A stretch of DNA of 39,374 nt from a virus (taxonomy: Duplodnaviria > Heunggongvirae > Uroviricota > Caudoviricetes). Under the pieces are notes generated by a model. The model was not told the origin of the DNA and made no database searches. It saw nothing but the letters and a program-made list of their open reading frames with translations. Every line of letters begins with the position of its first letter. Position 1 is the first letter of the stretch. A program made the translations under genes and the position numbers. Below are positions 2,057 to 37,687 of this stretch, in pieces. The stretch is from positions 1 to 39,374 of IMG/VR virus record IMGVR_UViG_3300029009_000036. One strand, given 5' to 3'.

Positions 2057-2752
2057 ATGAAAAAGGAAATACTCAAGGCTCTTTGCCCTACATGCGGTGG
2101 GTTACGTAACTGCACTGTGCATGGGAAGCTAACCACTAGCTGGGAGGATTCCCAATATCCAGTTTATGGGTACCATTACCATCACCTACTCCAATGCAAT
2201 GGCTGTGATACTGTCTTCTATCACCACAACGAACACTTCAGTGAGCATACTACCCACGAATATCGTGATGGTGAATTTGTAGAAACGCCTATAGATATGA
2301 TCACTACCTATCCTGCCGCTGAAACATTTCAAGCTCCGATATGGTTATCCAAGCTTGAATCAGTTGATCGTCAGCTCTTTCAAATATTTAATGAAATGTA
2401 TTCTTCATATACTTCTGACCATTTCATTCTTTCGTCCATCGGTTTACGGACGATTTTTGATCGAACTGCTGAACTGTTACAAATTCACCCCGGTTTGCCG
2501 CTTGGTGAAAAAGTTGAAAAATTAAAACAAGATGGAGTCATAGGCGACACTGAGGCATGCGTTATATCTTCAGTAATTGATGCAGGAAACGCCGCCGCAC
2601 ATCGCAGTTGGAGCCCGAATAAAAGTGAGTTCGAACAAATGCTAGAAGCTATAGAAAGTTTTGTCCAAAGAACTATCTTGGGCAAAAAATCACTTGAACA
2701 TATAACCAAACAACTCCCACCTCGGGTTACAAGACCTAAAAATAGTGCATAA
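2057..2752 (+). CDS. Hypothetical cargo protein: N-terminal Cys4 zinc ribbon plus C-terminal helical domain with GNAAAH motif (DUF4145/HEPN-like, unverified)
   Basis: 231 aa; CPTCGG...CNGC pair of CxxC motifs; C-terminal ...VIDAGNAAAHRSW... resembles the R/N..AH signature I associate with DUF4145/HEPN-type domains; lower GC than flanking phage genes. Confidence 0.6.
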   Translation: MKKEILKALCPTCGGLRNCTVHGKLTTSWEDSQYPVYGYHYHHLLQCNGCDTVFYHHNEHFSEHTTHEYRDGEFVETPIDMITTYPAAETFQAPIWLSKLESVDRQLFQIFNEMYSSYTSDHFILSSIGLRTIFDRTAELLQIHPGLPLGEKVEKLKQDGVIGDTEACVISSVIDAGNAAAHRSWSPNKSEFEQMLEAIESFVQRTILGKKSLEHITKQLPPRVTRPKNSA

Positions 2753-2778
2753 TCCGCGATCATCAATGTGGCGTAAGG

Positions 2779-3335
2779 CTATGGTTTACTTGCTACAGGG
2801 AATTTTTTATACACCGTTGAAATATCCAGATCATAAATCAGTGCGACTTGCTGCTGATATATTCCCGATTCAATCAACCTGCCAGCCTGCCCCCATTGTT
2901 CTACTGTCAGCTTTGGCTTTCGCCCACCGTTCCTCCCTTCTTGTCGTGCTGCGGCAAAGCCGCCCTAGTACGTTCGACAATAAACTCTCGCTCCATTTCA
3001 GCCAGGGCACCCATCACATGAAAGAAAAAGCGCCCCATTGGTGTGCTGGTATCAATAGCATCCGTCAGGCTGCGAAAATTAACGCCACGTTCGCGCAACT
3101 CTTCCACCAGCACGACAAGATGCCGCATACTGCGCCCCAGTCGGTCCAGTTTCCAGACCACCAGCGTGTCACCTGCCGATAATGTCCTGAGCAGCTTTTT
3201 CAGTCCTGGTCTGTCGGACTTTGTACCGCTTATCTTGTCTTCAAAAATCAGCTCACATCCTGCACAGTTCAACGCATTACGTTGTAGATCGGTGTTCTGG
3301 TCATTTGTTGATACGCGAACATAGCCAATAAGCAT
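2779..3335 (-). pseudogene. pin: Pin/Gin/Hin-family serine DNA invertase, frameshifted between catalytic and HTH domains
   Basis: ATG at 3335 with AGGAGG RBS; MLIGYVRVSTNDQNTDLQRNAL...LVVWKLDRLGRSMRHL is a canonical invertase catalytic domain; frame breaks near 2962-2968 (...VERTRAALPQHDKKGG...stop at 2907) while a shifted frame continues GGFAAARQEGRNGGKRPKLTVEQWGQAGRLIESGIYQQQVALIYDLDISTVYKKFPVASKP (HTH domain) to 2779. Confidence 0.75.
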
Positions 3336-3390
3336 GATAGCTCCTCCTGACAAAAACAGGAACGATGCCATTTGCGCGCTATTTCTGCAT

Positions 3391-3416
3391 TTTCATAAAC
3401 GTTGGTTTGGGAGAAG
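3391..3416. repeat. Invertase crossover site, left (gix/pix-like)
   Basis: tttcataaacgttggtttgggagaag; its reverse complement cttctcccaaaccaacgtttatgaaa matches 5224-5249 over ~20 bp; AAACC-NN-GGTTT core typical of gix/hix sites. Confidence 0.6.
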
Positions 3417-3754
3417 CGGCAAAAAGGAATGTGGGGACAGGGGCGAATCAGATACCTGATATGGGTAGCTTCACGCTTTCTGTTTCAGGTACTGGATATC
3501 AAAAATTACCATCTGGTTTTATTCTTCAGTGGGGCTCAATCGGCGCTCCAGGCATTGCACAGGATGTGGTAACCCATTTCCCGATTGCATTTCCGAACAG
3601 ATGTCTGCGTGTTTTGGTCTCACAAGACTACACACCAGATAGCGGGGCTGTTGGTTATATTGCCTGTGCAGGTTTTAGTCCCGACCCGGTTAAATTTATA
3701 TCCAGAGCCAGTACTCCAGGTCTCGGCGCTTCATTTTTAGCGTTAGGCTGTTAA
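3402..3754 (+). other. Alternative tail-fibre C-terminal coding segment (silent orientation, no own start)
   Basis: Open frame encoding ...[23 protein letters not shown]..., a tail-fibre C-terminal-like sequence, beginning at the left crossover site and followed by its own tfa gene. Confidence 0.5.
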
Positions 3755-3775
3755 TTTAGCTATATGGAATGAGAA

Positions 3776-4216
3776 ATGAATTATATATATTCCGCGACTA
3801 CAAACTCTTTCTATCCGTTAGAGATGAAAGAGGATTACACTCAAGCTGACTCATGGCCAGATGATGCTGTTGAAGTTGACGAGCAGGTGTATATTGAGTT
3901 TTCCGGATTACCGCCGAAAGGAAAAATCCGTATCGCTGGAGAAAATGGTTTTCCTGCATGGTCTGAAATTCCACCACCAACACATGAGGAACAGATTGCT
4001 GCAGCCGAACTGGAAAAGCAGCAATTGATTAATCAGGCCAACGATTATATGAACAGTAAACAATGGCCTGGTAAAGCGGCTATTGGTCGTCTGAAAGGTG
4101 AGGAACTGGCGCAATATAATTTGTGGCTGGATTATCTGGACGCACTGGAACTGGTTGATTCCTCCAGTGCTCCAGATATTGAATGGCCTACGCCTCCGGC
4201 AGTTCAGGCCAGATGA
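3776..4216 (+). CDS. Tail fibre assembly protein (alternative copy, Tfa family)
   Basis: 146 aa; C-terminus ...LWLDYLDALELVDSSSAPDIEWPTPP shares the conserved Tfa C-terminal motif with the convergent 4188-4781 gene. Confidence 0.8.
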   Translation: MNYIYSATTNSFYPLEMKEDYTQADSWPDDAVEVDEQVYIEFSGLPPKGKIRIAGENGFPAWSEIPPPTHEEQIAAAELEKQQLINQANDYMNSKQWPGKAAIGRLKGEELAQYNLWLDYLDALELVDSSSAPDIEWPTPPAVQAR

Positions 4217-4781
4217 CGTCCGGCGCGGTGCTGGTATCTGTTGCCGTCACCGCGTCAATGTAATCCAGCACGGCGTTAAGTCGGGTTGTTTCTGCCTGAG
4301 TCAGTTTCCGTCCGGCCTGTAATTTCAGCTGAATCAGACTAATGGAAGCCATTGCTGCATCAATCAGTGACTGGCGCTGTGCTTCTGCCGCGTCTACTGC
4401 GGCACTGTGTTGTGCCTCAGTGTCTGTCACCCATTTCTCACCATCCCATTTATCGTATGGCGTTAACGGTGAAATCGTGACATAACCGTCTTTGATGGCA
4501 CCGATATAATCCACTGTAGCAGCAGCACCATTTTCGATTGAGTAAACGGTCTCATTGCGATGGTCTTCTTCATGGCTCCATCCCTTACCTGTAAATACTG
4601 CCACTCTTCCCGGAATGTTTTCGCCAAGGTCAATACCAGTGGAATAGGCGGGCATACTTACGCCAGTATTAATATATTCATCAGACCAGCCCGTATACTC
4701 AGATGTTTCAGCATCATAATAAAAACAACGCATATCGCCCGGCACTGTAGCCAGCCCATTTTCATCAAAAACAGGTTTCAT
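4188..4781 (-). CDS. Tail fibre assembly protein (Tfa family, expressed orientation)
   Basis: 197 aa; ATG at 4781 overlaps tail-fibre stop (TAATG); C-terminus ...AVLDYIDAVTATDTSTAPDVIWPELPEA. Confidence 0.85.
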   Translation of the reverse strand: MKPVFDENGLATVPGDMRCFYYDAETSEYTGWSDEYINTGVSMPAYSTGIDLGENIPGRVAVFTGKGWSHEEDHRNETVYSIENGAAATVDYIGAIKDGYVTISPLTPYDKWDGEKWVTDTEAQHSAAVDAAEAQRQSLIDAAMASISLIQLKLQAGRKLTQAETTRLNAVLDYIDAVTATDTSTAPDVIWPELPEA

Positions 4782-7164: not shown

Positions 7165-7579
7165 GCGTTATCGCACTCCACAGATCATCAAAAGAAATCA
7201 TTACCGGTCCGTCACGACGCCAGAGGGTGATACTGTTACCCAGCTCATTAATCCCGGTGCGGCGGATATCCAGATCAATACGGGACACCACGCCGTCATC
7301 AATCATCCATTGCAGGCATTCGCGGATATACCCCCTTACTGTCTGCACCAGCTGATTGGTCAGTTTGCTGCGCTGAAGCAGCCACAGTCGGGAGCCGTAA
7401 CGGTCATTCTGTACCGCAGGCCAGGTATCCCCCCACCATCCCATCGGGACGTCGGCGTTGTCATCAGGCTCCGCCCGCCGCCAGGTAAACAGGGAAATCA
7501 CCACGGCGCGGGTCAGCGGATCCAGCGGTGCGCTGGCGCAGGTGCGTTTACCGTTCACCGTCAGCCACAGTTCCATCAT
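7151..7579 (-). CDS. Baseplate protein, Mu gp46-like
   Basis: 142 aa, ATG at 7579, overlapping neighbours in operon fashion. Confidence 0.7.
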   Translation of the reverse strand: MMELWLTVNGKRTCASAPLDPLTRAVVISLFTWRRAEPDDNADVPMGWWGDTWPAVQNDRYGSRLWLLQRSKLTNQLVQTVRGYIRECLQWMIDDGVVSRIDLDIRRTGINELGNSITLWRRDGPVMISFDDLWSAITHGGQ

Positions 7580-8124
7580 GCCTCCATCGCTTTATCCGGT
7601 TTGTCGGTGTTACTGCCCTGACCGTTCTCTCTGTGACGATGCCCGTTATAGGCAAGCCGCATCGCTGACATGGTAGTGCCGCCGGAGTCGCACAGGTCTT
7701 TCACCTGTCCTGTCACTTCCAGGTCCATTTCAAAACGTGCTTTAGGTGAATTGCGAAACGTGATCGTTTTACCTGCACCGTCCACCACGATCCCCTCCCG
7801 GGTCAGCGTCACGGACTGCCCCTGATCGTCATAGACAGCCACCTCACCCGTCTGCAGCCCTTTCAGGCGGTAGCGCCGGTCCGACACCGTAACAACCACC
7901 GCATGAGAACGGTCGCCATCCGGAAACAACACCACCGCTTCCGCACCGCTGTTTGCCCTTGCGGTAAAACCGTAGGGTTCAAGATGTTCAACCCCGGCTT
8001 TGGGTTCACCGGCAATCAGGGACACATCCACGGTCTGACATTTCGTGGCGGCACTGATGCTTTTCACCACGGCCCGCCCAATCAGGCCGAGGAGTTGTCG
8101 CTGCATGGCTTCAATCGCCCTCAT
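7576..8124 (-). CDS. Baseplate assembly protein V / spike (Mu gp45-like)
   Basis: 182 aa, ATG at 8124. Confidence 0.75.
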   Translation of the reverse strand: MRAIEAMQRQLLGLIGRAVVKSISAATKCQTVDVSLIAGEPKAGVEHLEPYGFTARANSGAEAVVLFPDGDRSHAVVVTVSDRRYRLKGLQTGEVAVYDDQGQSVTLTREGIVVDGAGKTITFRNSPKARFEMDLEVTGQVKDLCDSGGTTMSAMRLAYNGHRHRENGQGSNTDKPDKAMEA

Positions 8125-9203
8125 CAGAACGGGTCCTCCTGTACTCTGGCTTTTTTCTTTTTCCGCGCGCCGGGATCTTCGGGTTCAGGCAGATAAGCAT
8201 CAGGCGGGCCGACACGGATTTCCGTCAGGGTGCCGTTCTGGTCCTGAGTAAACGTGACTTCCGAAACAAGCAGTTCGGTATTGTCGAAACCACAGACCGG
8301 ATCGAAGACAATCACCCGCTGGTTGGGCTGCCACAGCGTACCGTTACCCTGTCGCCAGCCCTGCACCACATAAGTGGTTTCATCCGTCCGCGCCGCCCGT
8401 TGTCGGGCTTCAAAGTCAGCACGCGCAATACAGCCTGCCCCCGTGGCCTGCCCTGTCTGCCTGATATACATCGGACGGTAACGGGCAATAAATGCGTCCT
8501 CTGTGCGGGCCCGCAGCGCGGTGGTGGTGGCCTCACCGAAATCATCGTCGTTTCCGGCACGCTGCCCCGCCACCTGGTAAACTGAAAACCGCTCCCGGAT
8601 ACTCTTCTCCGTATCGCAGGAAAGGATGTTTTCCCCAAGTACCAGCGCGGTATGTGCCCGCGTTGAGCCAATACCGCCAATCACCAGCCTGCCGTGCGGG
8701 TCGTCGTAAGCCAGCGCCTGCTGCTGACCGAGTATTTTGTTGATCACCTCAATCACCGTTTCGCCGTGATCAGGCTGGACGTCAGGAATAACCCCCGACG
8801 GCGCACCGTTGTTCACCACCTCAATGCCGAAAGGCGCAGCAAGCGCCTGCGCAATCTGTACCAGCGATCGCCCGTTAAACTGTGTCGGTTCGGCTGCACA
8901 GTCAATCAGGTCAGCGGTCAGACTGCGTCCGGCAATACCGGTGCTGACCGAACGGGCATCGTAACGAACGGGCTTCGCCTCCACCCAGCCGGTGATCACC
9001 AGCTCATCACCAATCAGCACCTCCACTTTTGAACCGTTTTTAATGCGCGGCTGAAGCGTGGTAATACCCTCATCTCCCGGCCACTGGCGGGTGATCTCCA
9101 CACTGAAATCCCGCGCCAGCCGTTCAATACCGGCACCGATGCGCACCGATGTCCAGCCATTCCACTCCCGGCCATTTACCCGTAGCGTGACATTGTCGTT
9201 CAT
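8124..9203 (-). CDS. Tail/baseplate hub protein (Mu gp44 / P2 gpD-like)
   Basis: 359 aa, ATG at 9203; position after DNA circulation protein. Confidence 0.7.
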   Translation of the reverse strand: MNDNVTLRVNGREWNGWTSVRIGAGIERLARDFSVEITRQWPGDEGITTLQPRIKNGSKVEVLIGDELVITGWVEAKPVRYDARSVSTGIAGRSLTADLIDCAAEPTQFNGRSLVQIAQALAAPFGIEVVNNGAPSGVIPDVQPDHGETVIEVINKILGQQQALAYDDPHGRLVIGGIGSTRAHTALVLGENILSCDTEKSIRERFSVYQVAGQRAGNDDDFGEATTTALRARTEDAFIARYRPMYIRQTGQATGAGCIARADFEARQRAARTDETTYVVQGWRQGNGTLWQPNQRVIVFDPVCGFDNTELLVSEVTFTQDQNGTLTEIRVGPPDAYLPEPEDPGARKKKKARVQEDPF

Positions 9204-10573
9204 TGCACTGGCACCTTCAGAGGGATCACCGGCACAAAGCCGGGATGCGTAATGGCATTACGCCGAATAATGTCCGCGTCACGCGCCGCGTTATCAAACC
9301 AGGTCGCCGCCAGCACCAGCGCGGGTAAAACCTCATCCGGTGTGCGCTGAATGATCCGTGCAGACTGTTCAAGGCGCGTGTTGATATCCGCATTCAGATC
9401 TGCTTTCACCCGGCGCAGCGCCAGAAACAGCGCATCACTGGTTGTACGGGACAACTCCTTATCAATTGCCGTATTCAGTGTGTCGCGAATGTCAGTCAGT
9501 TCTTCCCACGTCGGCAGGTCAACTGTGTTTTTCACCGCCGGTGCATTGTTCAGTGCCGGATGCGTGACGGAAGTCCAGCCAGTGCTCTGCGCAGGTGTTG
9601 TTGCCTGCCCCACTGCGGCATTCTGCATCACCGCGGAAGTTGTTGGCGCAGGCAATCGGGTGACGGCATACGCCGCTTCGCTGATTGCGGTCGTACGAAG
9701 GGTGCTGGCAACCACGTTACGCTGCTGCGTAGCCGTGGCGGTGGTTTTACTGTCCGTTTTCCAGACGCCGCGCGGTTGCAGATCGCTGCCGAGGCTGACA
9801 CCGGAAAGCGTTTTGATCATGGTGACCAGGTCGCTGGCGTTACCATAAAGGCGTTTCCCGGTACGCCACATTTTCTGCACCTGCTCAACGAAATTTTTGC
9901 CTGACGATGGCGGCGGCAGAAGTACCGAGATATCCCCCTGCAACAGCCTGGCGGCATCCGATACGGCAGAATCCACCACTTTCATCGCATCAGAAACATA
10001 CCCCAGCATTATGCTGGCATTACCGATAACGTCGTTCTGCACGAAATCCGCCACACCATCGATACTGAAACCGCTGAAGCTGTCACTGATGCAGTCATCC
10101 AGTGCAGAACAGGATGACATCAGCGTCTGCGCCGTCGCCGTACCTGATGTGGGGTAAGAGAGTTCTCCTGCTTCGACAAACTTCAGGTCAAAGCGGACAA
10201 TACGCCCTTCACTTTTCGATGTGCTGACCCGAACTTCCCCGTCAACACAGACTTTCAGCTCACCATATGTCGGGTGGACAAGCGTGCCGGGACCGGGTTT
10301 ATTCAGCGCTTCAATCAGGCGATCGCGCTGGTCAAAGCAGTCATCTCCCACCACATAAGCTGTGATGGACGGGCGGAAAGTGACTTTTCCCAGATCTTCG
10401 GTATAGGGCTTGTCGCGGTTCGGGTATTCATGTGTTTCCACACGACGACCGGTTCCCGCACTTTCTTCTTCAACCTTAAACGGCACACCTCGAAATGATG
10501 CTTCAAGTAGCTTTTCACGCCAGCCACTTCGAGAATCAGAGGATAGGTACGAAGAAATATGAGAAAAATCCAT
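9200..10573 (-). CDS. DNA circulation protein-like tail protein (Mu gp43-like)
   Basis: 457 aa, ATG at 10573; position downstream of tape measure. Confidence 0.7.
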   Translation of the reverse strand: MDFSHISSYLSSDSRSGWREKLLEASFRGVPFKVEEESAGTGRRVETHEYPNRDKPYTEDLGKVTFRPSITAYVVGDDCFDQRDRLIEALNKPGPGTLVHPTYGELKVCVDGEVRVSTSKSEGRIVRFDLKFVEAGELSYPTSGTATAQTLMSSCSALDDCISDSFSGFSIDGVADFVQNDVIGNASIMLGYVSDAMKVVDSAVSDAARLLQGDISVLLPPPSSGKNFVEQVQKMWRTGKRLYGNASDLVTMIKTLSGVSLGSDLQPRGVWKTDSKTTATATQQRNVVASTLRTTAISEAAYAVTRLPAPTTSAVMQNAAVGQATTPAQSTGWTSVTHPALNNAPAVKNTVDLPTWEELTDIRDTLNTAIDKELSRTTSDALFLALRRVKADLNADINTRLEQSARIIQRTPDEVLPALVLAATWFDNAARDADIIRRNAITHPGFVPVIPLKVPVQ

Positions 10574-10589
10574 GGCGTCACCTCAAATA

Positions 10590-10616
10590 AAAACCGCGTG
10601 TAAACGCGGTTTTTTA
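10590..10616. terminator. Bidirectional rho-independent terminator
   Basis: Perfect 10-bp stem aaaaccgcgt / acgcggtttt with gtaa loop, T-run on plus strand and A-run giving U-run on minus strand; 14 nt downstream of moron stop. Confidence 0.7.
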
Positions 10617-10629
10617 TTAGGTAATAAAA

Positions 10630-11118
10630 TTAACGATCATAATCAACATTATGAGTATCTATTCTACATGATGAATAAGTAATTCCGCTTTCACCACTAA
10701 TATTTACGCCAGCCTTTACCTTCCCTGTTTTCGTAACATCAACAAAGAATTGCCCTCTTGGCATTTTAAATGCAAAAGAGAAACCAATAATTTCCGAGTC
10801 AAAGTTATTTTCATCCTCACTAATTGGTACAATAAAAGTCAATGGCGCAGATTGTGAGTTATTTTCAAAATCAAAAGCACCAATGCTTTTATTAAACTCG
10901 TAGGATGCTTTTTTTATTAAAAGAGTTCCACTTGCCGACTTTGCTGGGCATATTACAGACAGTTTATTTATTCCCTCTACATCTAGATCTATATTCTTAT
11001 CCGCTGAAGTTTTAACGTTATCTATAAAGTATGTAGCAAGCTGCTTTTCCGTTACTGGCTTCGCAAAGGAGTTTAATGGCAGTCCTACAGCCAACAACAA
11101 TATAAACATTTTCTTCAT
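10630..11118 (-). CDS. Moron: secreted (signal-peptide) protein of unknown function
   Basis: ATG at 11118 with AGGAGAG RBS; MKKMFILLLAVGLPLNSFA-KPV... is a classical Sec signal peptide with AxA-like cleavage site, no lipobox; very AT-rich; own terminator. Confidence 0.7.
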   Translation of the reverse strand: MKKMFILLLAVGLPLNSFAKPVTEKQLATYFIDNVKTSADKNIDLDVEGINKLSVICPAKSASGTLLIKKASYEFNKSIGAFDFENNSQSAPLTFIVPISEDENNFDSEIIGFSFAFKMPRGQFFVDVTKTGKVKAGVNISGESGITYSSCRIDTHNVDYDR

Positions 11119-11182
11119 ATTCTCTCCTACATTCAGCACAAACTTTACCACTCAATAACCCTACTTGATTAAAGTAGTTATA

Positions 11183-13084
11183 TTATCGTCTGAATGGAGA
11201 ATACCCCACATCGTGCGTGATTTTCATCAGGGGATCGGCTTTGCCCGGTACATCAATTATCTTCATACCTGGCGGAGCATTCTCGAACGTGACTTTCAGC
11301 TCGCTGTGCTGTGTCATGGAAGAAGATGGATTCAACAGCGGAACATTGGGTTTGTACTGACTCAGGCTGGCCTGATACTGCTCGTACTCTTTACGATCAA
11401 AAAAAGGCGTCCAGTCTGAAGCCAGAAACAGCCCTTTATTATCCAGCCAGTTAACCGTATCTTCAGGAATAACACTTTCCAGAGTATCTTTAACCGGCTC
11501 ATACATCAGGGTTCCCAGAAAACCATATACCCCGGCCTTCCCGATAAAGCCGCGGCCTTTCCCCATCAATCCCGTTTCTGCCGATACCTTCCCCAGCGTA
11601 CGCATCTCTCTGGTCACTGCGGTAATGGATTTGGTAACGTCAGCAACCCATTTGGTTGCCATAAACAGGGCAATCGCTTTCAGAACAGTTTCCCATCCCC
11701 CCATCGCCTGCGCCGTTTCATCCACCACGTGCCAGACTTTTTTTATGACAGGACCTACGGTTTCCCAGTTATCAATAATGAGGTAAGCGCCACCAACCAG
11801 AAGAGCAATCAACCCCTTAGCAGGCGTCATATTCATCACACCGCCGAGAACTTTCATAATTCTGGACAAAGAGCCTGCAGCGGCTCCCACCGTCAGTAAG
11901 GCCAGACCGATTTTAGCAATGGTCTTAACGAGCTCCGGGTTTTCACGAACAAACGTTCTCACTTCCTCAAGGAGCGGTTTTACCGCTTCAAGACCATCAT
12001 TAACCTCAGGAAGAAACGTTTCCCCCAGCGTGGAAGAAATGGCATCAAGTTGATTTTGCAGAAGTAAAAGCTGGTTTTCCGTCGTCGCTGCCCTCGAAGC
12101 ATATTCCTTCTGCATCGAACTGCCATACTGCTGGGAATCCGCAACCCGCCTGAAGTTGGTACGCAACAAATCAAGGTTAGTCAGCAGAGGTGCTATCGCG
12201 CCCAGAGACTCTTTCCCGAACAGGGCATTCAGCACAGCTGCCTGTTTTTCTTTAGGCACTTTAGCCATCGCATCCAGTACAGACAGCATGGTGCCCCGGG
12301 CATCTTTCTGCATATCAGCAGCTAATTTCTTCGGATTGATCCGCAGAAAACGCAATGCCTGTTTCTGCGATTTTGTCGCAGAATTTCCCGCGGTCAGGGA
12401 AAGCATGAAGTTCTTGATCCCTGTGGCGGCAATTTCTGACTCCACGCCCATCCCGGCAATGGTTGCCCCCATTGCCGCGATTTCGCCGGAAGCCACACCT
12501 GCAACACCACCTAAAGGACCAATACGCGTAACAATATCGGAGATTTTCTTCGCGTTCGCCGGGCCGGTATTACCAAGGTAGTTGATTTTGTCAGCCAGCC
12601 CGGCCACTTCATCCTGCGTCATATTAAACGCAGTACGCCACTGGGCCATCATCTGCCCGGACTCTTCAGCCGTGGTATCAAAGGCCACGCCCATCTTCAC
12701 CGCATCAGTGGCAAACTGCATCAGTTCATCACGTGCAATCCCGGCCTGACCGCCAGCCGCCACAATTTCCGCGATCCCGTCTGCAGACATGGGAAGCTCA
12801 GTAGACAAAGCGCGTACCTGCTCCGTCATGGCCTTAAACGCATCCGGCGTATCCAGACCGTCCACCACTTTGCGGACATCAGCCATCTTCGATTCAAGGG
12901 TGATGGCTGATTTTACAGGGAGTGCCAGTGCCCCCATTATTGCAGTACCCGCCCCGGCAGCGCCCAGAGCAAGGCTGGAGACTTCTTTCTGAAATCCCTT
13001 AAGCTGACGCTGCATACCTTTAAGCGGGCCGGACAGCCTGTCAACAGCGGTGATGATGGCTTTCAGCTGAAAATTATCAGCCAT
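11183..13084 (-). CDS. Tail tape measure protein
   Basis: 633 aa, ATG at 13084; Ala/Gly-rich helical sequence with hydrophobic segments; position after tail tube/chaperone. Confidence 0.85.
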   Translation of the reverse strand: MADNFQLKAIITAVDRLSGPLKGMQRQLKGFQKEVSSLALGAAGAGTAIMGALALPVKSAITLESKMADVRKVVDGLDTPDAFKAMTEQVRALSTELPMSADGIAEIVAAGGQAGIARDELMQFATDAVKMGVAFDTTAEESGQMMAQWRTAFNMTQDEVAGLADKINYLGNTGPANAKKISDIVTRIGPLGGVAGVASGEIAAMGATIAGMGVESEIAATGIKNFMLSLTAGNSATKSQKQALRFLRINPKKLAADMQKDARGTMLSVLDAMAKVPKEKQAAVLNALFGKESLGAIAPLLTNLDLLRTNFRRVADSQQYGSSMQKEYASRAATTENQLLLLQNQLDAISSTLGETFLPEVNDGLEAVKPLLEEVRTFVRENPELVKTIAKIGLALLTVGAAAGSLSRIMKVLGGVMNMTPAKGLIALLVGGAYLIIDNWETVGPVIKKVWHVVDETAQAMGGWETVLKAIALFMATKWVADVTKSITAVTREMRTLGKVSAETGLMGKGRGFIGKAGVYGFLGTLMYEPVKDTLESVIPEDTVNWLDNKGLFLASDWTPFFDRKEYEQYQASLSQYKPNVPLLNPSSSMTQHSELKVTFENAPPGMKIIDVPGKADPLMKITHDVGYSPFRR

Positions 13085-13168: not shown

Positions 13169-13492
13169 TTAATTTCCAGAACCACGCGACATTGTAGAAT
13201 CGCTTCCGGAGCTCTCTTCCGTCTCCAAGCCGGTAAAAAAACGCATTACAATCATGCCTGCCTTGAAAATATCCAGCTTCGTCATCTGCGCTGCAGACGA
13301 GCGCGGGATCCCGGCCAGAAGCGGGATATATTTCAGCGCCACCTGACTGTCCATTTTCATACCACCATCAGGCGAAACAGAGAAAGGGAACCCCAGCGCC
13401 TCAATCTCGTCATACGTAGGCTCACGTATTTCCAGCACATGCAGTGTTTCTTTGTGGGCGATGATCGGTTTTTTAAGTACAAGCTCAATCAC
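13169..13492 (-). CDS. Tail assembly chaperone (Mu gp41 / P2 gpE-like)
   Basis: 107 aa; start codon is GTG at 13492; small acidic protein between tube and tape measure. Confidence 0.6.
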   Translation of the reverse strand: MIELVLKKPIIAHKETLHVLEIREPTYDEIEALGFPFSVSPDGGMKMDSQVALKYIPLLAGIPRSSAAQMTKLDIFKAGMIVMRFFTGLETEESSGSDSTMSRGSGN

Positions 13493-13845
13493 TGGTAATC
13501 CCCTTCTTCACCGTGGAACTCAAGATCAACCGTGCCTTCTTCGGCATTATGGTTCGCTTCGCCGTGCAGCCAGGCAGACGACAATACATAGACCTGACCG
13601 TTCGCCAGCTCGGCAGTGATGGTCATCTCATCAGACGAGGTGATTTTGCTCACCGGAAAATTCTTCGGCACCTTGAAGGTCCCTTTGACATAAGGCGCAC
13701 GGTGAGTTTCCTTGCGGTCCACTGAACCGTCCAGGCCGATGATGTCATCATTGACCGTCCTGTTCATGGGCACCTCAATGCCGCCGGTCAGCGATAGCTG
13801 CTGACCGTCAATTTTGAAATAACAGGTTCCCCCGATACGGGCCAT
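13489..13845 (-). CDS. Tail tube protein
   Basis: 118 aa, ATG at 13845, immediately after sheath gene. Confidence 0.75.
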   Translation of the reverse strand: MARIGGTCYFKIDGQQLSLTGGIEVPMNRTVNDDIIGLDGSVDRKETHRAPYVKGTFKVPKNFPVSKITSSDEMTITAELANGQVYVLSSAWLHGEANHNAEEGTVDLEFHGEEGDYQ

Positions 13846-15341
13846 TATGCAGACTCCTCTGAATACTGAAGACGGAACTGGTTAACCACGGCAAAAACAC
13901 GCAACTGGTTAACATAGTCAGGCGGGAACAGCGTGTTCAGGCGGTTCGGATCGCTGGCATCACGCTCCACAACCAGGTACTGCTTAAACAGTTCGTAGTT
14001 TTCCACGATCCCCGCTCGCTCAAGCTGACGGTAGGTTGCCAGCAGTTCCCCTTTGATCACCGCCGGGGTGACAATCGCCTGACCGGGACCAAAGCGGGTA
14101 CCGTCACTGGCAAGCTTGTGACGCCCGTACTTACTGGTAATGACGGATTTCAGTTTGCGCAGTACATACGCGCTGGTATGCAGCGTCTCGCTGTCGAGGT
14201 AGCTGTTATCCGCAACCCCGTAAGCGTTTTTCCTGTACGTGGTGACATCACGCTGAATGCGCAGTACCCCGCTTTCGACATACGCCGTTGCCACGCCATG
14301 AGACAGCAGGGTCTGTTGTTCGGTCATCGTGAACCGTTTCCCCTTCGGCGCAGGCAGCATACCCACCAGCTCACCGGTCTGCGTGGGACGTGCCGGATCG
14401 TTGCGAATAAACACCGCTGCGCGGGCGGTACGGCTTGCCGCCAGCTCATCGGCAGGCGTCTGGGTGTCTTTTTCATACCCCGCCAGGGTAATGTGCTGCT
14501 GGTTAAACTGGTCACCTGCGGTCACCAGTTCTGACAGCGTGCCGATCTTTGCCGTATACACATGACCATACAGCTGACGCGCATAGCTCCAGCGACCGCT
14601 GGTATCGTTCATCTCGGTCACCAGCGTGTTAACGGAGGCCGTGTCGTTGAACGGCAGGCCGATATAATCAAACGGCTCATCCGCCATTGCAGCCACCGCG
14701 CCAGTGAGAACAGGAGAGCCCGTTCCGGCGGTCCCCGTCGCCACGGCAATCTGTACGCCCGCAGGCAGCACTTCGCCCCCACCAAAGCCGTAGTAATTGA
14801 GGCTGACAGGAATTTCATTCCCGCAAAGCCCCTTATGACGCGCGGTCAGTGTGACCACGCCTGCCGAAGATGAGGCCGTAAACGGCAGGGTCGGAACGGC
14901 ATTGATGGCATCCTGGATACTGCTGGCAATCGTCGTGACGTTATCGCCGTTGGTCACCGAAGCCTGCACACGGGTACGTCCCACATAGACATTCACCGTG
15001 CCGCTTTCGGTTGCCGCCCCGGTCACCGTCAGCGTAACCGTTGCCGCCGCGCCTGTGGCTTCCGGAACGGCAATCACATACAGCTCACCAAACGGGTCGG
15101 TCTGGCGATAAGCCTCGACCATACGCGCCAGCTGACTTCCCGCACCACAAATCTGGCGTGCATAGTCTGCCGACGGCATCAGCACCAGACTGTTGGCAAC
15201 AATCTCTGCACCGTTATTGGCATGACCAATCAGCAGCGATGCTCCGCTGTCCTGTGCAGTATTCGCAGCCTGGTTATCCATTTCCGCATAAAACAGCGGA
15301 ACCAGCGTATTCGACGGAATGGTGTTAAAGCTTATCGTCAT
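13845..15341 (-). CDS. Contractile tail sheath protein
   Basis: 498 aa, ATG at 15341; size and position typical of Mu-like sheath. Confidence 0.85.
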   Translation of the reverse strand: MTISFNTIPSNTLVPLFYAEMDNQAANTAQDSGASLLIGHANNGAEIVANSLVLMPSADYARQICGAGSQLARMVEAYRQTDPFGELYVIAVPEATGAAATVTLTVTGAATESGTVNVYVGRTRVQASVTNGDNVTTIASSIQDAINAVPTLPFTASSSAGVVTLTARHKGLCGNEIPVSLNYYGFGGGEVLPAGVQIAVATGTAGTGSPVLTGAVAAMADEPFDYIGLPFNDTASVNTLVTEMNDTSGRWSYARQLYGHVYTAKIGTLSELVTAGDQFNQQHITLAGYEKDTQTPADELAASRTARAAVFIRNDPARPTQTGELVGMLPAPKGKRFTMTEQQTLLSHGVATAYVESGVLRIQRDVTTYRKNAYGVADNSYLDSETLHTSAYVLRKLKSVITSKYGRHKLASDGTRFGPGQAIVTPAVIKGELLATYRQLERAGIVENYELFKQYLVVERDASDPNRLNTLFPPDYVNQLRVFAVVNQFRLQYSEESA

Positions 15342-26107: not shown

Positions 26108-26860
26108 TTATCTCGTCACTTTTCTTAATTGCGCCTCAGCATATGCTTCTTCCTGCCAGCACTTTGTCACCAGTTTATCAATGACATCTGCATATCCTTT
26201 GTACCACTGATAATCCGTCAGGTCTGGTACCAGCTTCTGGACATGATGCCGCGCCAGTGTGGTTGGTAAACGGCTAAACCGATTTCCATTGCAACGCCCA
26301 CAAATCTTATAAACAGGCGTGCCATGAAGCCGGGTCCTTTTTTCATCCAGGACAATACCTTTACCCTTACACCCTCTGCACGCGGTGCTGACTTCTCCCT
26401 TACCATGACAATGCTGACATAGTTCCTTCACCCACTCTTCCTTGATAACAGATTCCCCGCTTCTGGAGTGTTTCACCACTTCGCGCAATACATTATGAGA
26501 TCCAGTACCAGCACAATGCTCACAGCGAGCCTTACTTGCCGCAGACCTGGAATAATCAGCAAAGGCAAAATTCACAAGGTAAGGGATGATCTGTAACCGG
26601 GTTTCTTCACTCAATTTGTTCAATGTCGGGTTATCCAGTGCCATCGCGTAATTGAGCAGACCTTCAATCGCAAATTGAGGATCCTGAACACCAACTTTTG
26701 CCAGGAATAAGGCAAACCCAAGCGGTGCTTTCGACTGCACCATCCCCTGCGCAGCCATCACATCCGTAATCGTTAAACCACCTGAGCCTGTCGCCGGTGC
26801 GTCATCGCTCAATTTTGGAGATTTTGGGGAGTAATATTTTGGTAAGGCTTCAAGGTTCAT
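26108..26860 (-). CDS. Late-gene antiterminator Q (QuuQ-like)
   Basis: ORF-track start 26902 is GTG; ATG at 26860 (MNLEALPKYY...) has GGAGA RBS and gives 250 aa; four CxxCxGxG zinc-finger repeats; lies between DUF968 gene and pR'/lysis cassette, as in E. coli Qin (ydfU-quuQ) from memory. Confidence 0.7.
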   Translation of the reverse strand: MNLEALPKYYSPKSPKLSDDAPATGSGGLTITDVMAAQGMVQSKAPLGFALFLAKVGVQDPQFAIEGLLNYAMALDNPTLNKLSEETRLQIIPYLVNFAFADYSRSAASKARCEHCAGTGSHNVLREVVKHSRSGESVIKEEWVKELCQHCHGKGEVSTACRGCKGKGIVLDEKRTRLHGTPVYKICGRCNGNRFSRLPTTLARHHVQKLVPDLTDYQWYKGYADVIDKLVTKCWQEEAYAEAQLRKVTR

Positions 26861-26873
26861 GCTCGTTCTCCAC

Positions 26874-27869
26874 TTACGCCAGTACGCCAATTGCCAGCGC
26901 ACGATCGATAAAACGAAATATCAGCTCCAGCTGGGAGCCATACTTCTCTTCAAATGCCACGGTATCCGCATGCAGCTCGTCGTGATGCTTTCTGCACAAA
27001 GGCAACACAAAAAGGTCATGCGCTTTTGTTCCCATTCCACCCTGACCGTGACCTATCAGGTGGTGGGGATCATCAGCGGGCTTTCCACAACATGCACACG
27101 GCTGTGTCTTAACCCAGCGCGTGTACTTTTCATTAACCCAGCGGCGACGTTTTGGGCGTAACATAAAAGACTCCGGCGACTCCGGATCCACTTTCAGCGC
27201 CAGCACCTTTTTCGCCTTATCCTGGATGATGCTGGTGGCAGGAACCGAAGGCACAAGGTCACTTTCCCGGGTAACAGACGGCACAACAGGCTTCGGTAAT
27301 CTCAGTGCCTTACGGGCTGCACTTTCCGGTAAGGCATCCGCCAGATCATTACGAATCAGCCACCAGCACAGTTCCGGCATTGTCACAACGTGACTGTCAT
27401 CAAAACCGAGATCCCGACGCACAACAGACAACACCCAGCGGGCACAGTTATCCGTTGCCATTGATTCCAGCCGTTCCGTGAACTGATCGCGCAGCTGGTT
27501 ATCGCAGTGCCAGCACAGACGGATTGCACCCGGAGCGTGTCGCATTGTGGTCATGTTCTCGCTGTGCCAGTCGGAATGAGGCCACTGGCAGCCTTTTTCA
27601 CGAAGTAACCAGCTTTCAAGACATTCCACGCCACCAGCACGACGGATCACTGCCTCATTGCGGAACACGGCCCGAACGGCAGGATCATCCGCCAGCGGTT
27701 GTGATGCCGCCGGAACGGCACCACTGGCGAAAGATGAATAACGCTCCGGCTCAGGCTCCAGCAGGACACGCCCCTGCATAAACAGGGGCATCAGCTCTGA
27801 ACCTGGCCTGAACAATACGATCCCCATACGCGGGGCAATTTCAGGGGTCAGTAGTGCTCTCACGGTCAC
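26874..27869 (-). CDS. DUF968-family protein (YdfU-like) with C-terminal HNH-like zinc motif
   Basis: 331 aa (GTG start at 27869, uncertain); C-terminal ...CACCGKPADDPHHLIGHGQGG...CRKHHDELH. Confidence 0.65.
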   Translation of the reverse strand: MTVRALLTPEIAPRMGIVLFRPGSELMPLFMQGRVLLEPEPERYSSFASGAVPAASQPLADDPAVRAVFRNEAVIRRAGGVECLESWLLREKGCQWPHSDWHSENMTTMRHAPGAIRLCWHCDNQLRDQFTERLESMATDNCARWVLSVVRRDLGFDDSHVVTMPELCWWLIRNDLADALPESAARKALRLPKPVVPSVTRESDLVPSVPATSIIQDKAKKVLALKVDPESPESFMLRPKRRRWVNEKYTRWVKTQPCACCGKPADDPHHLIGHGQGGMGTKAHDLFVLPLCRKHHDELHADTVAFEEKYGSQLELIFRFIDRALAIGVLA

Positions 27870-31604: not shown

Positions 31605-32433
31605 GACGATGCCCTCCGCTGATATTCAGGAGACGGTGAATATGAAAATTAGCCTTATCCGCCAAACGAATACGTTCAGCCTGCAATTTAAGAAGTGTTT
31701 CTACCAGAACCTGATGCGCCTGCGGATCCGAAAGAGTTACCTTGCGCAGAGCACGTAGTGCAGTTGTTACATAACTGAGTTTATGTAAGTCTTCATCATT
31801 CAGACGAGCGAGGGTTGGGAGAGTAGTCATGGTGACAGCCCCTATGTTGAATTCAAAGAACTCACCACATGGGACGCCAATCACAGAGGTGGTGAGACGT
31901 ACAGGGTTGGCGTAACCGGTCAACATAGAACCCGGCGCATCTTGCGATGCCCCTGCACGCCCCACCATAATTTGGACGTAGCAATGCTCATGATACGAAA
32001 AAACCGCATGAGCGCGGTTATGCTCTATATTGAATTCCAGGACGCCAATCCCGACACCCGCTTTATAAGGTGCCTGAACAGTGTAACGTCCCGGAATGGC
32101 AGAATCAATGTGCTGGTGGTCCTTCACACTCAACAAAATCACGCCTGAATTTCCACAAAGGACTAAAGCACTCATGCGGGTAGTCTTTGCGAAGATAGAT
32201 AACGCGCTGTGTTTCTGGCTCCCAACGAATAACATGAACATAAAGTCCTCTTCCGTCACGAAACCAGCGGTTAAGTTCCTGCACAACTCGCCCCCCACAG
32301 TCAGGTAAAGTTCTCTGTGGTTACTTACAGCCAGGTGATTTGGTAATCTGCATTCATGCCGTAACAACAGGTGTTCAGCGACGCTGACCACCAGCTGTTG
32401 CGACAAACGGTTATTTGCCGTTAAACTGTTCAT
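31597..32433 (-). CDS. Hypothetical early protein
   Basis: 278 aa, ATG at 32433; no domain recognised by eye. Confidence 0.5.
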   Translation of the reverse strand: MNSLTANNRLSQQLVVSVAEHLLLRHECRLPNHLAVSNHRELYLTVGGELCRNLTAGFVTEEDFMFMLFVGSQKHSALSIFAKTTRMSALVLCGNSGVILLSVKDHQHIDSAIPGRYTVQAPYKAGVGIGVLEFNIEHNRAHAVFSYHEHCYVQIMVGRAGASQDAPGSMLTGYANPVRLTTSVIGVPCGEFFEFNIGAVTMTTLPTLARLNDEDLHKLSYVTTALRALRKVTLSDPQAHQVLVETLLKLQAERIRLADKANFHIHRLLNISGGHRHA

Positions 32434-33315: not shown

Positions 33316-33990
33316 ATGAAAACAGTCCATGACATCCGGCGGTCTAACGCCAGAAAACTGAGAGATGGTGTTGGCGGGAATTCTTCCTTTGCCACCATGA
33401 TTGATCGCGAGCCAACCCAGACCAGCAGGTTTATGGGAGATGGTGCTACTAAAAATATCGGTGACAGCATGGCACGGCACATCGAAAAATGTTTCGACCT
33501 GCCTGTCGGATGGCTTGATCAAGAACACCAGACAACAAACATCACAAAAAAACCTGATGTTTCAATTACTAACAAACAAATAACGTTAGTCCCTGTCATA
33601 TCATGGGTACAGGCCGGAGCATGGAAAGAAGTTGGCTATTCTGAGGTTGATTTGAGCACAGCAGAAACTTATCCCTGCCCTGTACCCTGTGGCGAAATGA
33701 CTTATATCTTGCGGGTGATTGGTGATTCAATGATTGATGAGTACCGCCCGGGAGACATGATTTTTGTTGATCCCGAAGTCCCTGCCTGCCACGGTGACGA
33801 CGTTATTGCATTGATGCACGATACAGGCGAAACCACCTTCAAGCGATTGATAGAAGATGGAACACAGCGTTATCTCAAAGCATTAAACCCAAACTGGCCT
33901 GAGCCTTACATTAAGATTAACGGTAATTGCTCTATAATTGGTACAGTAATTTTCTCAGGAAAACCAAGAAGATACCAAATAAAGGCCTAA
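33316..33990 (+). CDS. CI-like repressor (HTH plus S24 LexA-type autopeptidase domain)
   Basis: 224 aa, ATG at 33316; C-terminal ...LRVIGDSMIDEYRPGDMIFVDPE... has GDSM Ser nucleophile context typical of S24 peptidases. Confidence 0.85.
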   Translation: MKTVHDIRRSNARKLRDGVGGNSSFATMIDREPTQTSRFMGDGATKNIGDSMARHIEKCFDLPVGWLDQEHQTTNITKKPDVSITNKQITLVPVISWVQAGAWKEVGYSEVDLSTAETYPCPVPCGEMTYILRVIGDSMIDEYRPGDMIFVDPEVPACHGDDVIALMHDTGETTFKRLIEDGTQRYLKALNPNWPEPYIKINGNCSIIGTVIFSGKPRRYQIKA

Positions 33991-35907: not shown

Positions 35908-36083
35908 TTTCATTACTGCAAATGCCCCTGCGGGGGCGTTTACGGAAGCGATAATTTTAACTATTGCCGCCCCTATAAAGAACCATTAAACGATAACGTG
36001 ACGTAGCTATTGATAGTAAATGAAGCACTTGCAAAATAATTGCATTGCGTATATATACGCACATGTGTTGTATTACAGCGATA

Positions 36084-36878: not shown

Positions 36879-36914
36879 CTCACCGGGTGCAGCCGGTTAT
36901 GATGGAGAAATGAT

Positions 36915-37187: not shown

Positions 37188-37194
37188 ATAGAAT

Positions 37195-37228
37195 ATGAAT
37201 AAACCCATCCAAAGGTGGGTTTATTCAT
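37195..37228. terminator. Perfect 13-bp hairpin between convergent genes
   Basis: atgaataaaccca / tgggtttattcat with 8-nt loop tccaaagg; U-rich tract on minus strand; overlaps stop of the 37221-37682 gene. Confidence 0.65.
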
Positions 37229-37682: not shown

Positions 37683-37687
37683 AAGTA

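What the first reader, a model, noticed from the sequence alone, without database searches (positions are those of the whole stretch)
10583..11182. Secreted-protein moron inserted between tape measure and DNA-circulation genes
A ~0.6 kb AT-rich block interrupts the GC-rich tail operon. It carries one gene with a strong RBS, a textbook Sec signal peptide (MKKMFILLLAVGLPLNSFA) without lipobox, and its own perfect 10-bp bidirectional terminator. This layout suggests lysogen expression independent of late transcription; function is unknown.
Basis: partly seen in the sequence, partly recalled or inferred. Interest (0 to 1): 0.55.

Follow-up and report, generated by a model that had tools for sequence, protein, structure and literature searches.

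The report
Exported-protein cargo gene in prophage tail operon
An optional, AT-rich single-gene cassette sits between the tape-measure and DNA-circulation genes of an E. coli prophage; it encodes an uncharacterised small exported beta-barrel protein and is one of at least four alternative envelope-protein cargos at this hotspot, so it is an ordinary phage "moron" whose function (most likely blocking other phages at the cell envelope) is untested.

Summary
Window 10574-11182 is a 609-nt block of 34.5% GC in a 55% GC tail operon. It holds one 162-aa ORF (10630-11118, minus strand) with an AGGAGA ribosome-binding site, a Sec-type signal peptide and an 11-bp perfect hairpin with a U-run. Phage SfIV has the same flanks with only 24 nt between them.

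The site is a hotspot. In 80 related viral contigs it carries this gene (14), three unrelated AT-rich envelope-protein genes (15, 12, 6) or nothing (29). One alternative matches a family annotated "Sie-like".

The protein family is tiny: 17 hits among 1.84 billion representatives, with no Pfam match. AlphaFold (pLDDT 85.7) predicts a helix plus an eight-stranded beta-barrel with two invariant cysteines, and no specific structural relative.

Diverged relatives (35-53% identity) occupy the same slot in other E. coli, Shigella and Salmonella tail modules. Two more lie beside plasmid-maintenance genes.

Expression independent of late transcription is not shown. No promoter scores above background, and the Salmonella version starts 16 nt after the tape-measure stop codon.

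Verdict: a new member of a known kind (a moron), probably an envelope-acting superinfection-exclusion factor. Interest is moderate.

The parts
11183..13084 (-). Tail tape-measure gene (633 aa), the upstream flank of the hotspot. Its stop codon TAA at 11183-11185 is the left edge of the cargo block.
   Evidence: PF10145 PhageMin_Tail, E 2e-42. Annotated Mup42/tape measure in vB_EcoM-720R4 and ETEC H10407. The C-terminal 150 aa are 98-99% identical in SfIV-type phages that lack the cargo.
11119..11182 (-). 64-nt AT-rich spacer upstream of the cargo ORF. It contains the Shine-Dalgarno AGGAGA (11123-11128) and only a weak promoter-like match (TTAATC-19 nt-TAAAGT).
   Evidence: Read directly. Promoter scoring 6.7 is within the operon background. 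The consensus scan found none.
11062..11118 (-). Codons 1-19, the Sec-type signal peptide MKKMFILLLAVGLPLNSFA, with predicted signal-peptidase I cleavage after SFA.
   Evidence: The A|K cleavage context is aligned in most full-length homologues, including the five closest. There is no Cys, so no lipobox.
10630..11118 (-). Cargo ORF of 162 aa. The mature protein is 143 aa, 15.7 kDa, pI 5.2, with no transmembrane segment. Predicted structure: N-terminal helix plus an 8-stranded beta-barrel, with invariant Cys57 and Cys151.
10581..10614 (-). Intrinsic-terminator-like hairpin (arms 10604-10614 and 10589-10599, 11 bp, loop UUAC) followed by UUUUUAUUU. It sits directly upstream of the GAGG ribosome-binding site of the DNA-circulation gene.
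   Evidence: Absent from the SfIV empty site. Analogous hairpins with T-runs follow the homologues in L109, L112, L115 and L125 and follow cargos B and C.
9200..10573 (-). DNA-circulation (Mu gp43/N-like) gene, the downstream flank. Its first ~17 codons (about 10520-10573, 41% GC) differ between hotspot states and belong to the exchanged segment.
   Evidence: PF07157 DNA_circ_N, E 9e-34. Alignment of junction states. GC of the first 54 nt.
26108..26902 (-). Q-type late antiterminator gene. It explains how a terminator inside the tail operon can be tolerated during lytic growth.
   Evidence: PF03589 Antiterm, E 2.6e-53. Read-through of terminators by Q-modified RNA polymerase is established lambda biology, inferred here and not tested.

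Best explanation
This is a moron-type cargo cassette occupying a recombination hotspot between the tape-measure and DNA-circulation genes of an SfI/SfII/SfIV-like (lambdoid regulation, Mu-type tail) E. coli prophage.

Shown: the cassette is dispensable. It is compositionally foreign. It holds one ORF that is under purifying selection over long divergence, plus a terminator. It is interchangeable with three unrelated AT-rich genes that all encode proteins with N-terminal signal or membrane-anchor segments.

Strongly inferred (about 0.8): the product is exported by Sec, cleaved after SFA, and folds in the periplasm into a soluble, probably disulfide-bonded (Cys57-Cys151) eight-stranded beta-barrel. 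It is therefore not a virion part.

Inferred (about 0.35-0.4, the most likely single function): in the lysogen it acts at the envelope as a superinfection-exclusion or anti-phage factor, interfering with an incoming phage in the periplasm during tail-tip or tape-measure passage or genome delivery.

During lytic growth the Q-antiterminated late transcript reads through the cassette's terminator. In the repressed prophage any Q-independent transcription of the cassette would stop at that terminator, before the baseplate genes.
For: Optional and foreign: SfIV has the same flanks with a 24-nt spacer. GC is 34.5% against 55%.

Hotspot occupancy: in 80 N-selected IMG/VR loci the site holds cargo A (14), B (15), C (12), D (6, on the opposite strand) or nothing (29). 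Among 5,426 complete E. coli genomes, A is in 101, B in 85, C in 178 and D in 72, of 1,060 genomes that carry the flank.

Real gene: dN/dS is 0.19 against the 49%-identical homologue. The two cysteines are invariant across 10 family members. The AF2 model is confident.

Exported and soluble: signal-peptide features are conserved while the hydrophobic-core sequence is not, and the mature part has no hydrophobic stretch.

Not structural: an inducible phage, vB_EcoM-720R4, carries it while SfIV-type phages lack it. Distant homologues lie among RepA, PemIK, ParA and repressor genes of phage-plasmid-like contigs, as monocistronic units with their own terminator.

Anti-phage reading: sibling cargo D matches phrog_8545, annotated 'superinfection exclusion Sie-like' (E 1.5e-49). 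Cargos B, C and D have their own promoter-like sites or the opposite orientation. The first described moron, HK97 gp15, lies beside the tape-measure gene and is a prophage-expressed exclusion protein (PMC3594210). The cargo evolves faster (35-53% identity) than the tube (81-91%), N (53-73%) and tape-measure (48-75%) proteins, and recent alleles show dN/dS of 0.5-0.7.

Terminator tolerance: the Q antiterminator is present.
Against: No promoter above background lies upstream of this gene. In the Salmonella homologues only 16 nt separate the tape-measure stop codon from the start codon, so the family may be made only with late genes.

The 'Sie-like' label on cargo D is an annotation, not an experiment, and position in a hotspot is only circumstantial evidence.

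The dN/dS values among close alleles rest on 12-16 substitutions.

SfII-type empty sites also keep a terminator at this junction, so a terminator alone does not prove an independent transcription unit.
Confidence: 0.5

Rival explanations
1. It is a lysogenic-conversion factor for host fitness or virulence rather than phage defence. In this reading it is a periplasmic ligand-binding (calycin-like) protein or an enzyme inhibitor, for example of lysozyme, that protects or adapts the lysogen in the animal gut.
Confidence: 0.2
2. It is a late-expressed helper of the lytic cycle. It would be co-transcribed with the tape-measure gene from the Q-dependent late promoter and exported late in infection, for example to block receptors or the periplasmic route so that progeny or competing phages do not inject into the doomed cell or its debris. 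It would not be expressed in the lysogen.
For: It lies on the same strand as, and immediately downstream of, the tape-measure gene. No promoter above background lies upstream. The Salmonella homologues have a 16-nt spacer with a GGAG site. The family recurs in this slot across diverged tail modules. The Q antiterminator would carry late transcription through the terminator.
Against: A terminator follows the gene in all five examined slot-resident homologues (window, L109, L112, L115, L125), as it does the P0020 copy in the phage-plasmid contig. That is pointless for antiterminated transcription but is the classic moron layout. Distant homologues are monocistronic among plasmid-maintenance and immunity genes that are expressed in the prophage state. 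Sibling cargos have their own promoters or the opposite orientation. The gene is dispensable for SfIV-type phages.
Confidence: 0.2
3. It is a hitch-hiking or decaying gene with no current function, kept only because it sits between two essential genes.
For: Function is unknown. Close alleles show dN/dS of 0.5-1.1. Internally deleted variants exist in metagenome assemblies (P0002-P0004). One genome has an IS1 in or beside the gene.
Against: The ORF is intact at full length in 100 of 101 E. coli genomes that hold it. Long-range dN/dS is 0.19, with invariant cysteines and conserved motifs across 26-50%-identical relatives. The fold prediction is confident. The family is kept in several lineages and genera.
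Confidence: 0.05
4. It is a structural or assembly component of the Mu-type tail that some lineages have lost.
For: It is located inside the tail module, in the same slot in several lineages.
Against: The signal peptide would send the protein out of the cytoplasm, where tails assemble. SfIV, SfII and many relatives have no gene here. The slot is filled by unrelated genes in other relatives, one of them on the opposite strand. Some homologues lie in plasmid-maintenance regions.
Confidence: 0.03

Closest known systems
HK97 gp15 moron (Juhala et al. 2000; Cumby et al. 2012, as summarised in PMC3594210)
   Same: Both are a single small gene of foreign base composition inserted in a tail operon next to the tape-measure gene of a temperate E. 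coli phage, encoding an envelope-targeted protein. gp15 is expressed from the prophage and blocks genome entry in a way that depends on the incoming phage's tail.
   Different: gp15 is a small inner-membrane protein related to YebO. This protein is a cleaved, soluble 143-aa beta-barrel with no transmembrane segment and no sequence relationship to gp15. gp15 lies upstream of the tape-measure gene, this gene lies downstream. Prophage expression and exclusion are proven for gp15 and untested here, and no clear promoter was found.
Accessory-gene hotspots of temperate phages, such as the P2 old/tin and Z/fun hotspots (Rousset et al. 2022, cited in bioRxiv 10.1101/2024.10.15.618418)
   Same: Two conserved flanking genes bracket a site holding mutually exclusive, AT-rich, unrelated cargos or nothing. 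Exchange appears to occur by recombination in the flanks.
   Different: Here the cargos are single small genes that all encode signal-peptide or membrane-anchored proteins, rather than cytoplasmic multi-gene defence systems, and none matches PADLOC. I found no description of this tape-measure/DNA-circulation site in SfI-like phages in the papers searched.
Periplasmic or lipoprotein superinfection-exclusion proteins (T4 Sp, T5 Llp, Cor of phi80/N15, P1 Sim, TP-J34 Ltp); comparison from general knowledge, not tested here
   Same: These are phage-encoded proteins exported beyond the inner membrane that stop another phage at the receptor, cell-wall or DNA-entry step. This is the proposed mode of action.
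   Different: There is no detectable sequence or specific fold relationship. The only PHROG match is the unknown-function family 5586. No phenotype is known.
Calycin-like eight-stranded beta-barrels (avidins, lipocalins, MoaF, MliC/PliC/PhiA lysozyme inhibitors)
   Different: Sequence identity is 3-14%. Foldseek E-values are at least 0.01 against PDB and BFVD. hhalign against MliC gives probability 0.1%. This protein has an extra N-terminal helix and its own conserved motifs (CP..SASG, FKMP.GQFFV, GVN..GESG).

Membership tests
Moron (Hendrix/Juhala definition, as given in PMC3594210) | Extra DNA between two genes that are adjacent in related phages | tested here: met
   SfIV and about 29 IMG/VR relatives have 15-27 nt between the same two genes. 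The window has 609 nt.
Moron (Hendrix/Juhala definition, as given in PMC3594210) | Base composition different from the surrounding genes | tested here: met
   34.5% GC against 55.0% (sd 4.5%) for the late region.
Moron (Hendrix/Juhala definition, as given in PMC3594210) | Own transcription terminator | tested here: met
   An 11-bp perfect hairpin plus U-run at 10581-10614, z = -4.4, absent from the empty site. Termination activity itself was not measured, and the simple consensus scan missed the site.
Moron (Hendrix/Juhala definition, as given in PMC3594210) | Own promoter | tested here: inconclusive
   The consensus scan found 0 sites. The best in-insert match scores 6.7, within the operon background (90th percentile 8.5). 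Salmonella homologues have only a 16-nt spacer. Weak, activator-dependent or alternative-sigma promoters cannot be excluded.
Moron (Hendrix/Juhala definition, as given in PMC3594210) | Expression from the repressed prophage | not testable with these tools
   This needs RNA-seq, 5'-end mapping or proteomics of a lysogen. No paper mentioning WP_000738066 or vB_EcoM-720R4 was found.
Sec/signal-peptidase I secreted protein | Basic n-region, hydrophobic h-region of 7-15 residues, small residues at -3 and -1, no downstream transmembrane segment | tested here: met
   MKK / FILLLAVGLPL / NSFA|K. The mature part has a maximum 19-residue hydrophobicity of 0.99. The A|K site is aligned in most full-length homologues, including the five closest. 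SignalP was not available.
Bacterial lipoprotein (signal peptidase II substrate) | Lipobox [LVI][ASTVI][GAS]C at the end of the signal peptide | tested here: not met
   No Cys occurs before residue 57. The Shigella homologue P0007 has LTSC within its signal peptide, but it also has the aligned AQA|K site.
PHROG 5586 (unknown function) | Full-length match to the family profile | tested here: met
   E 4.1e-85, residues 1-161 of a 161-position profile.
MliC/PliC periplasmic lysozyme inhibitors | Sequence-profile membership (Pfam MliC family; conserved SxSGAxY loop) | tested here: not met
   No family member matches any Pfam family at E of 1 or below. hhalign of the family alignment against E. coli MliC (sequence verified against PDB 2f09) gives probability 0.1%.
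MliC/PliC periplasmic lysozyme inhibitors | Eight-stranded beta-barrel fold | tested here: inconclusive
Known anti-phage defence systems (PADLOC-DB v2) | Match to any defence-protein model | tested here: not met
   0 families at E of 10 or below.
HK97 gp15 / YebO-type exclusion proteins | Small inner-membrane protein with a transmembrane helix | tested here: not met
   The mature protein has no transmembrane-like stretch and a predicted soluble barrel.
Mu-type tail structural or assembly proteins | Present in all members of the tail-module family, and cytoplasmic | tested here: not met
   Absent from SfIV, SfII and many relatives, replaced by unrelated genes in others, and carries an export signal.

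The most novel reading that the evidence does not exclude
The tape-measure/DNA-circulation junction of SfI-like (Mu-type tail) prophages is a dedicated slot for envelope-acting anti-phage genes. On this reading the beta-barrel family found here is a new class of soluble periplasmic superinfection-exclusion protein that recognises the tape-measure or tail-tip complex of incoming phages. Its persistent linkage to the tape-measure gene across E. coli, Shigella and Salmonella would then reflect matching of exclusion specificity to the tail type. The three sibling cargos (phrog_8976, phrog_5485 and the OB-fold Sie-like protein) would be further untested exclusion factors.
Probability: 0.25. Interest if true: 0.65.

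Novelty: new member of a known kind. Interest (0 to 1): 0.4.

Why it matters
If the protein blocks phage entry, it would be a new soluble periplasmic exclusion factor, and few of those are understood mechanistically.

The hotspot would also become a ready-made source of candidates. Four small envelope proteins, each present in 70-180 of 5,426 complete E. coli genomes, could influence phage-therapy host range and prophage competition in E. coli, Shigella and Salmonella.

If the protein instead binds a ligand or inhibits a host enzyme, it would be a lysogenic-conversion factor carried by ETEC, APEC and clinical strains.

As it stands, this is a well-documented but ordinary moron of unknown function.

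Tried and rejected
1. Sequence annotation of the protein gave nothing usable. Pfam gave only a sub-threshold Pect-lyase hit (E 0.047). NCBIfam, PADLOC, PDB phmmer, a family profile against PDB and Pfam on all family members gave no usable hit.

2. The first AlphaFold run, with a 3-sequence alignment, was useless (pLDDT 37.8). It only worked after distant homologues from the 1.84-billion-protein search were added.

4. The lysozyme-inhibitor idea came from a shared 'SASG' motif and the barrel fold. It was rejected for membership because hhalign gave probability 0.1%.

5. The 2,363-aa repeat protein P0025 (E 5.8e-4) was judged a spurious low-complexity match.

6. Lipoprotein status was rejected for this protein because there is no Cys in the signal peptide.

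7. A transposon-type insertion was rejected. No flanking direct repeats or terminal inverted repeats exceed chance-level short matches.

8. Co-divergence of the cargo with the tape-measure gene was tested. The pairwise identities show mosaicism and no clean pattern.

9. The genome-contig scan with the 10-sequence alignment failed because no stretch was conserved enough. With 4 sequences it found only 2 E. coli/Shigella loci plus one dubious hit.

10. Literature searches for the protein accession, the phage name, and descriptions of this hotspot in SfI/SfII/SfIV papers found nothing specific.

11. An Rfam scan found no RNA family in the block.

Full report
**1. What is in the sequence**

The window is a temperate phage or prophage with lambdoid regulation:
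- Q antiterminator PF03589 at 26108-26902
- S24 repressor at 33316-33990
- integrase at 301-1398 (all)

Its tail module is Mu-type and lies on the minus strand:
- sheath 13845-15341, tube 13489-13845, chaperone 13169-13492
- tape measure 11183-13084 (PF10145)
- DNA-circulation gene 9200-10573 (PF07157)
- gp44/P 8124-9203 and gp45 7576-8124

By DNA similarity it belongs with Shigella phages SfI, SfII and SfIV and with E. coli prophages. The induced phage vB_EcoM-720R4 is 99.7% identical over the region.

Between the tape-measure stop codon (11183-11185) and the DNA-circulation start codon (10571-10573) lie 609 nt of 34.5% GC. The late region averages 55.0% with sd 4.5%.

The block contains a single ORF, 10630-11118 on the minus strand. 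It encodes 162 aa from an ATG preceded by AGGAGA with a 4-nt spacing. RefSeq and GenBank annotators call the same CDS.

Downstream of the ORF is an 11-bp perfect hairpin, arms 10589-10599 and 10604-10614 with a 4-nt loop. On the minus strand it is followed by UUUUUAUUU and then by the GAGG ribosome-binding site of the next gene. The fold has z = -4.4 against shuffles. A simple consensus scan did not list it, probably because the A and U tracts pair with each other and so lie inside the stem.

The stem has 11 pairs, not 10. And the exchanged segment extends into the first ~17 codons of the DNA-circulation gene, to about 10520.

**2. It is optional DNA at a hotspot**

Phage SfIV has the same two genes with a 24-nt spacer and no hairpin. 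Its tape-measure C-terminus is 98-99% identical to the window's.

I fetched 80 IMG/VR contigs selected only by similarity to the DNA-circulation protein and classified the junction in each:

| Junction state | Loci | Description |
|---|---|---|
| Cargo A | 14 | this gene |
| Cargo B | 15 | unrelated 164-170-aa signal-peptide protein (phrog_8976) |
| Cargo C | 12 | unrelated 176-aa protein with an N-terminal hydrophobic anchor (phrog_5485) |
| Cargo D | 6 | 148-aa membrane-anchored OB-fold protein on the opposite strand |
| Empty | 29 | 15-27 nt between the two genes |
| Unresolved | 4 | no upstream sequence held |

Cargo D matches PF12869 tRNA_anti-like and phrog_8545, annotated 'superinfection exclusion Sie-like', E 1.5e-49. 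All four cargos are 31-38% GC.

Among 5,426 complete E. coli genomes, 1,060 carry the flank. Cargo A is in 101, B in 85, C in 178 and D in 72.

No transposon-like repeats flank the block. The junctions suggest cassette exchange by recombination in the flanking genes.

**3. The protein**

It matches only phrog_5586, a family of unknown function. Pfam, NCBIfam, PADLOC and PDB sequence searches found nothing.

An exhaustive HMMER search of 1.84 billion representative proteins found only 17 relatives. The full-length ones are 148-176 aa.

Signal-peptide evidence:
- In most full-length relatives, including the five closest, the signal peptide aligns to the same Ala|Lys cleavage context, although the hydrophobic cores differ.
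- Two cysteines (C57 and C151) are invariant across the family.
- The window protein has no cysteine in its signal peptide, so it is not a lipoprotein.
- The mature part is 143 aa, 15.7 kDa and pI 5.2, with no transmembrane-like stretch.

A shared 'SASG' motif suggested the MliC lysozyme inhibitors. A profile comparison with verified E. coli MliC gave probability 0.1%, so membership is rejected.

The gene is under purifying selection at long range: dN/dS is 0.19 against the 49%-identical homologue, with dS saturated. Among close alleles the ratio is 0.5-0.7, but on few substitutions.

**4. The family is a recurrent resident of this slot**

| Homologue | Identity to window protein | Host | Context |
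|---|---|---|---|
| P0007 | 49% | Shigella, E. coli | directly after a 649-aa tape-measure gene, own terminator; the next gene is cut by IS1 |
| P0012-like | ~50% | E. coli | between the tape-measure and DNA-circulation genes |
| P0014-type | ~35% | Salmonella enterica (very common) | between the tape-measure and DNA-circulation genes |
| P0019 | ~30% | unknown | after a tape-measure gene and a HIRAN-domain gene |
| P0018 | 27% | Pantoea | phage-plasmid-like contig, beside ParA and a repressor gene |
| P0020 | 26% | unknown | phage-plasmid-like contig, among RepA, PemIK, ParA and repressor genes |

The P0012-like and P0014-type genes are AT-rich (35-40% GC against 48-54% for their loci). P0020 is a monocistronic unit with its own terminator.

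Pairwise identities show that the cargo (35-53%) diverges faster than the tube (81-91%), N (53-73%) and tape-measure (48-75%) proteins. The pattern is mosaic, with no clean co-divergence.

Only one of 50,697 deposited phage genomes, vB_EcoM-720R4, contains any member of the family.

**5. Expression logic**

All late genes are on the minus strand, downstream of Q. From established lambda biology, Q-modified polymerase ignores terminators, so the hairpin need not interrupt tail-gene expression during lytic growth. This is inferred, not tested.

For the repressed prophage the evidence is mixed.

For independent expression:
- All five slot-resident homologues examined (window, L109, L112, L115, L125), and the P0020 copy in the phage-plasmid contig, are followed by a terminator.
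- Cargo C has a strong promoter-like site, TTGTAA-16 nt-TAGAAT, scoring 11.4. That is above every 300-nt window of the tail operon.
- Cargo B has sites scoring about 9.
- Cargo D is on the opposite strand.

Against independent expression:
- The 64-nt spacer upstream of this gene has no site above background. The best is 6.7, against a 90th percentile of 8.5.
- The Salmonella homologues start 16 nt after the tape-measure stop codon.
- SfII-type empty sites also keep a terminator at this junction.

So independent expression in the lysogen remains a hypothesis.

**6. Interpretation**

The best-supported account is a moron-type cargo cassette at a recombination hotspot. It encodes a Sec-exported, probably disulfide-bonded, soluble periplasmic beta-barrel that is not part of the virion.

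The most likely function is superinfection exclusion or phage defence at the envelope (about 0.35-0.4). The grounds are:
- the export signal
- the company it keeps at the hotspot, including a Sie-like sibling
- its restriction to temperate phages and phage-plasmids
- its fast evolution
- the precedent of HK97 gp15, the first described moron, which lies next to the tape-measure gene and is a prophage-expressed exclusion protein (PMC3594210)

The rivals are a host-fitness or virulence conversion factor (about 0.2), a late-expressed lytic helper (about 0.2), a functionless passenger (about 0.05) and a tail component (about 0.03).

**7. Novelty**

The kind of element is well known: a moron, or hotspot cargo, in a tail operon. 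The protein family is uncharacterised and rare. I found no description of the hotspot in the SfI/SfII/SfIV literature or in general hotspot surveys.

I rate it a new member of a known kind. Interest is moderate (0.4), mainly as an experimentally tractable candidate for a new periplasmic exclusion factor.

Noticed in passing
window 35700-37900: A second strongly AT-rich zone (31-39% GC) lies in the early region. It holds a 277-aa ORF (36045-36878, plus strand) with no Pfam or PADLOC match and a PrtN-like gene (36915-37187, plus strand). It also holds a SocA/Panacea antitoxin-domain gene (37688-38269, minus strand) followed by an overlapping 156-aa ORF (37221-37691, minus strand). That pair looks like a Panacea-type toxin-antitoxin pair.
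   Followed up: partly
window 31885-32073 (minus strand): Rfam finds C4 antisense RNA (RF01695, 80 bits) and isrK (RF01394, 60 bits) side by side. This is a P1/P7-type c4/ant-like immunity element in an otherwise lambdoid early region.
   Followed up: no
window 2057-4781: A DUF4145 gene (2057-2752) lies next to the integrase. At the tail-fibre end there is a Gp53-like C-terminal fibre fragment (3365-3754, plus strand) and two tail-fibre-assembly genes in opposite orientation (3776-4216 plus, 4188-4781 minus). This suggests an alternative or invertible fibre cassette.
   Followed up: no
L051 2934-3446; L059 2903-3433; L092 2974-3420 (minus strand); SKA5 L005 3220-3732: Three unrelated AT-rich single-gene cargos occupy the same tape-measure/DNA-circulation junction in related prophages. 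Each encodes a signal-peptide or membrane-anchored protein: phrog_8976, phrog_5485, and the OB-fold phrog_8545 'Sie-like'. They are present in 85, 178 and 72 complete E. coli genomes respectively.
   Followed up: partly
L003 (SfII) 3139-3177; L068, L087 and similar loci: Empty junctions of the second tape-measure type still carry a terminator hairpin directly upstream of the DNA-circulation gene. It could be a remnant of a lost cargo or a native attenuator inside the tail operon.
   Followed up: no
L109/L110 4477-4640 (Shigella flexneri SFBU1023, E. coli ECMA0423): The 49%-identical homologue and its terminator are intact, but the DNA-circulation gene that follows is cut after about 15 codons by an IS1 end. 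The cargo survives in a degraded prophage.
   Followed up: partly
E. coli PEC122 NZ_CM168021.1 4438347-4440124 (H14/H54): An IS1B element lies in or beside the cargo gene, and only 93% of the gene is matched. This is the only one of the 101 E. coli genomes holding the gene in which it is not full-length.
   Followed up: no
L107 2387-3423: A distant family member (P0019) directly follows a HIRAN-domain gene downstream of a tape-measure gene, so this is a two-gene cargo.
   Followed up: no
P0002, P0003, P0004 (ENA metagenome assemblies): Variants of the protein carry in-frame internal deletions that remove 18-41 residues of the barrel. They are either real deletion alleles or assembly artefacts.
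   Followed up: no
L019/L034 (IMGVR_UViG_2913147268_000006): This contig has exactly the window's length (39,374 bp) but carries a 96%-identical allele at different coordinates. This is probably a coincidence.
   Followed up: no
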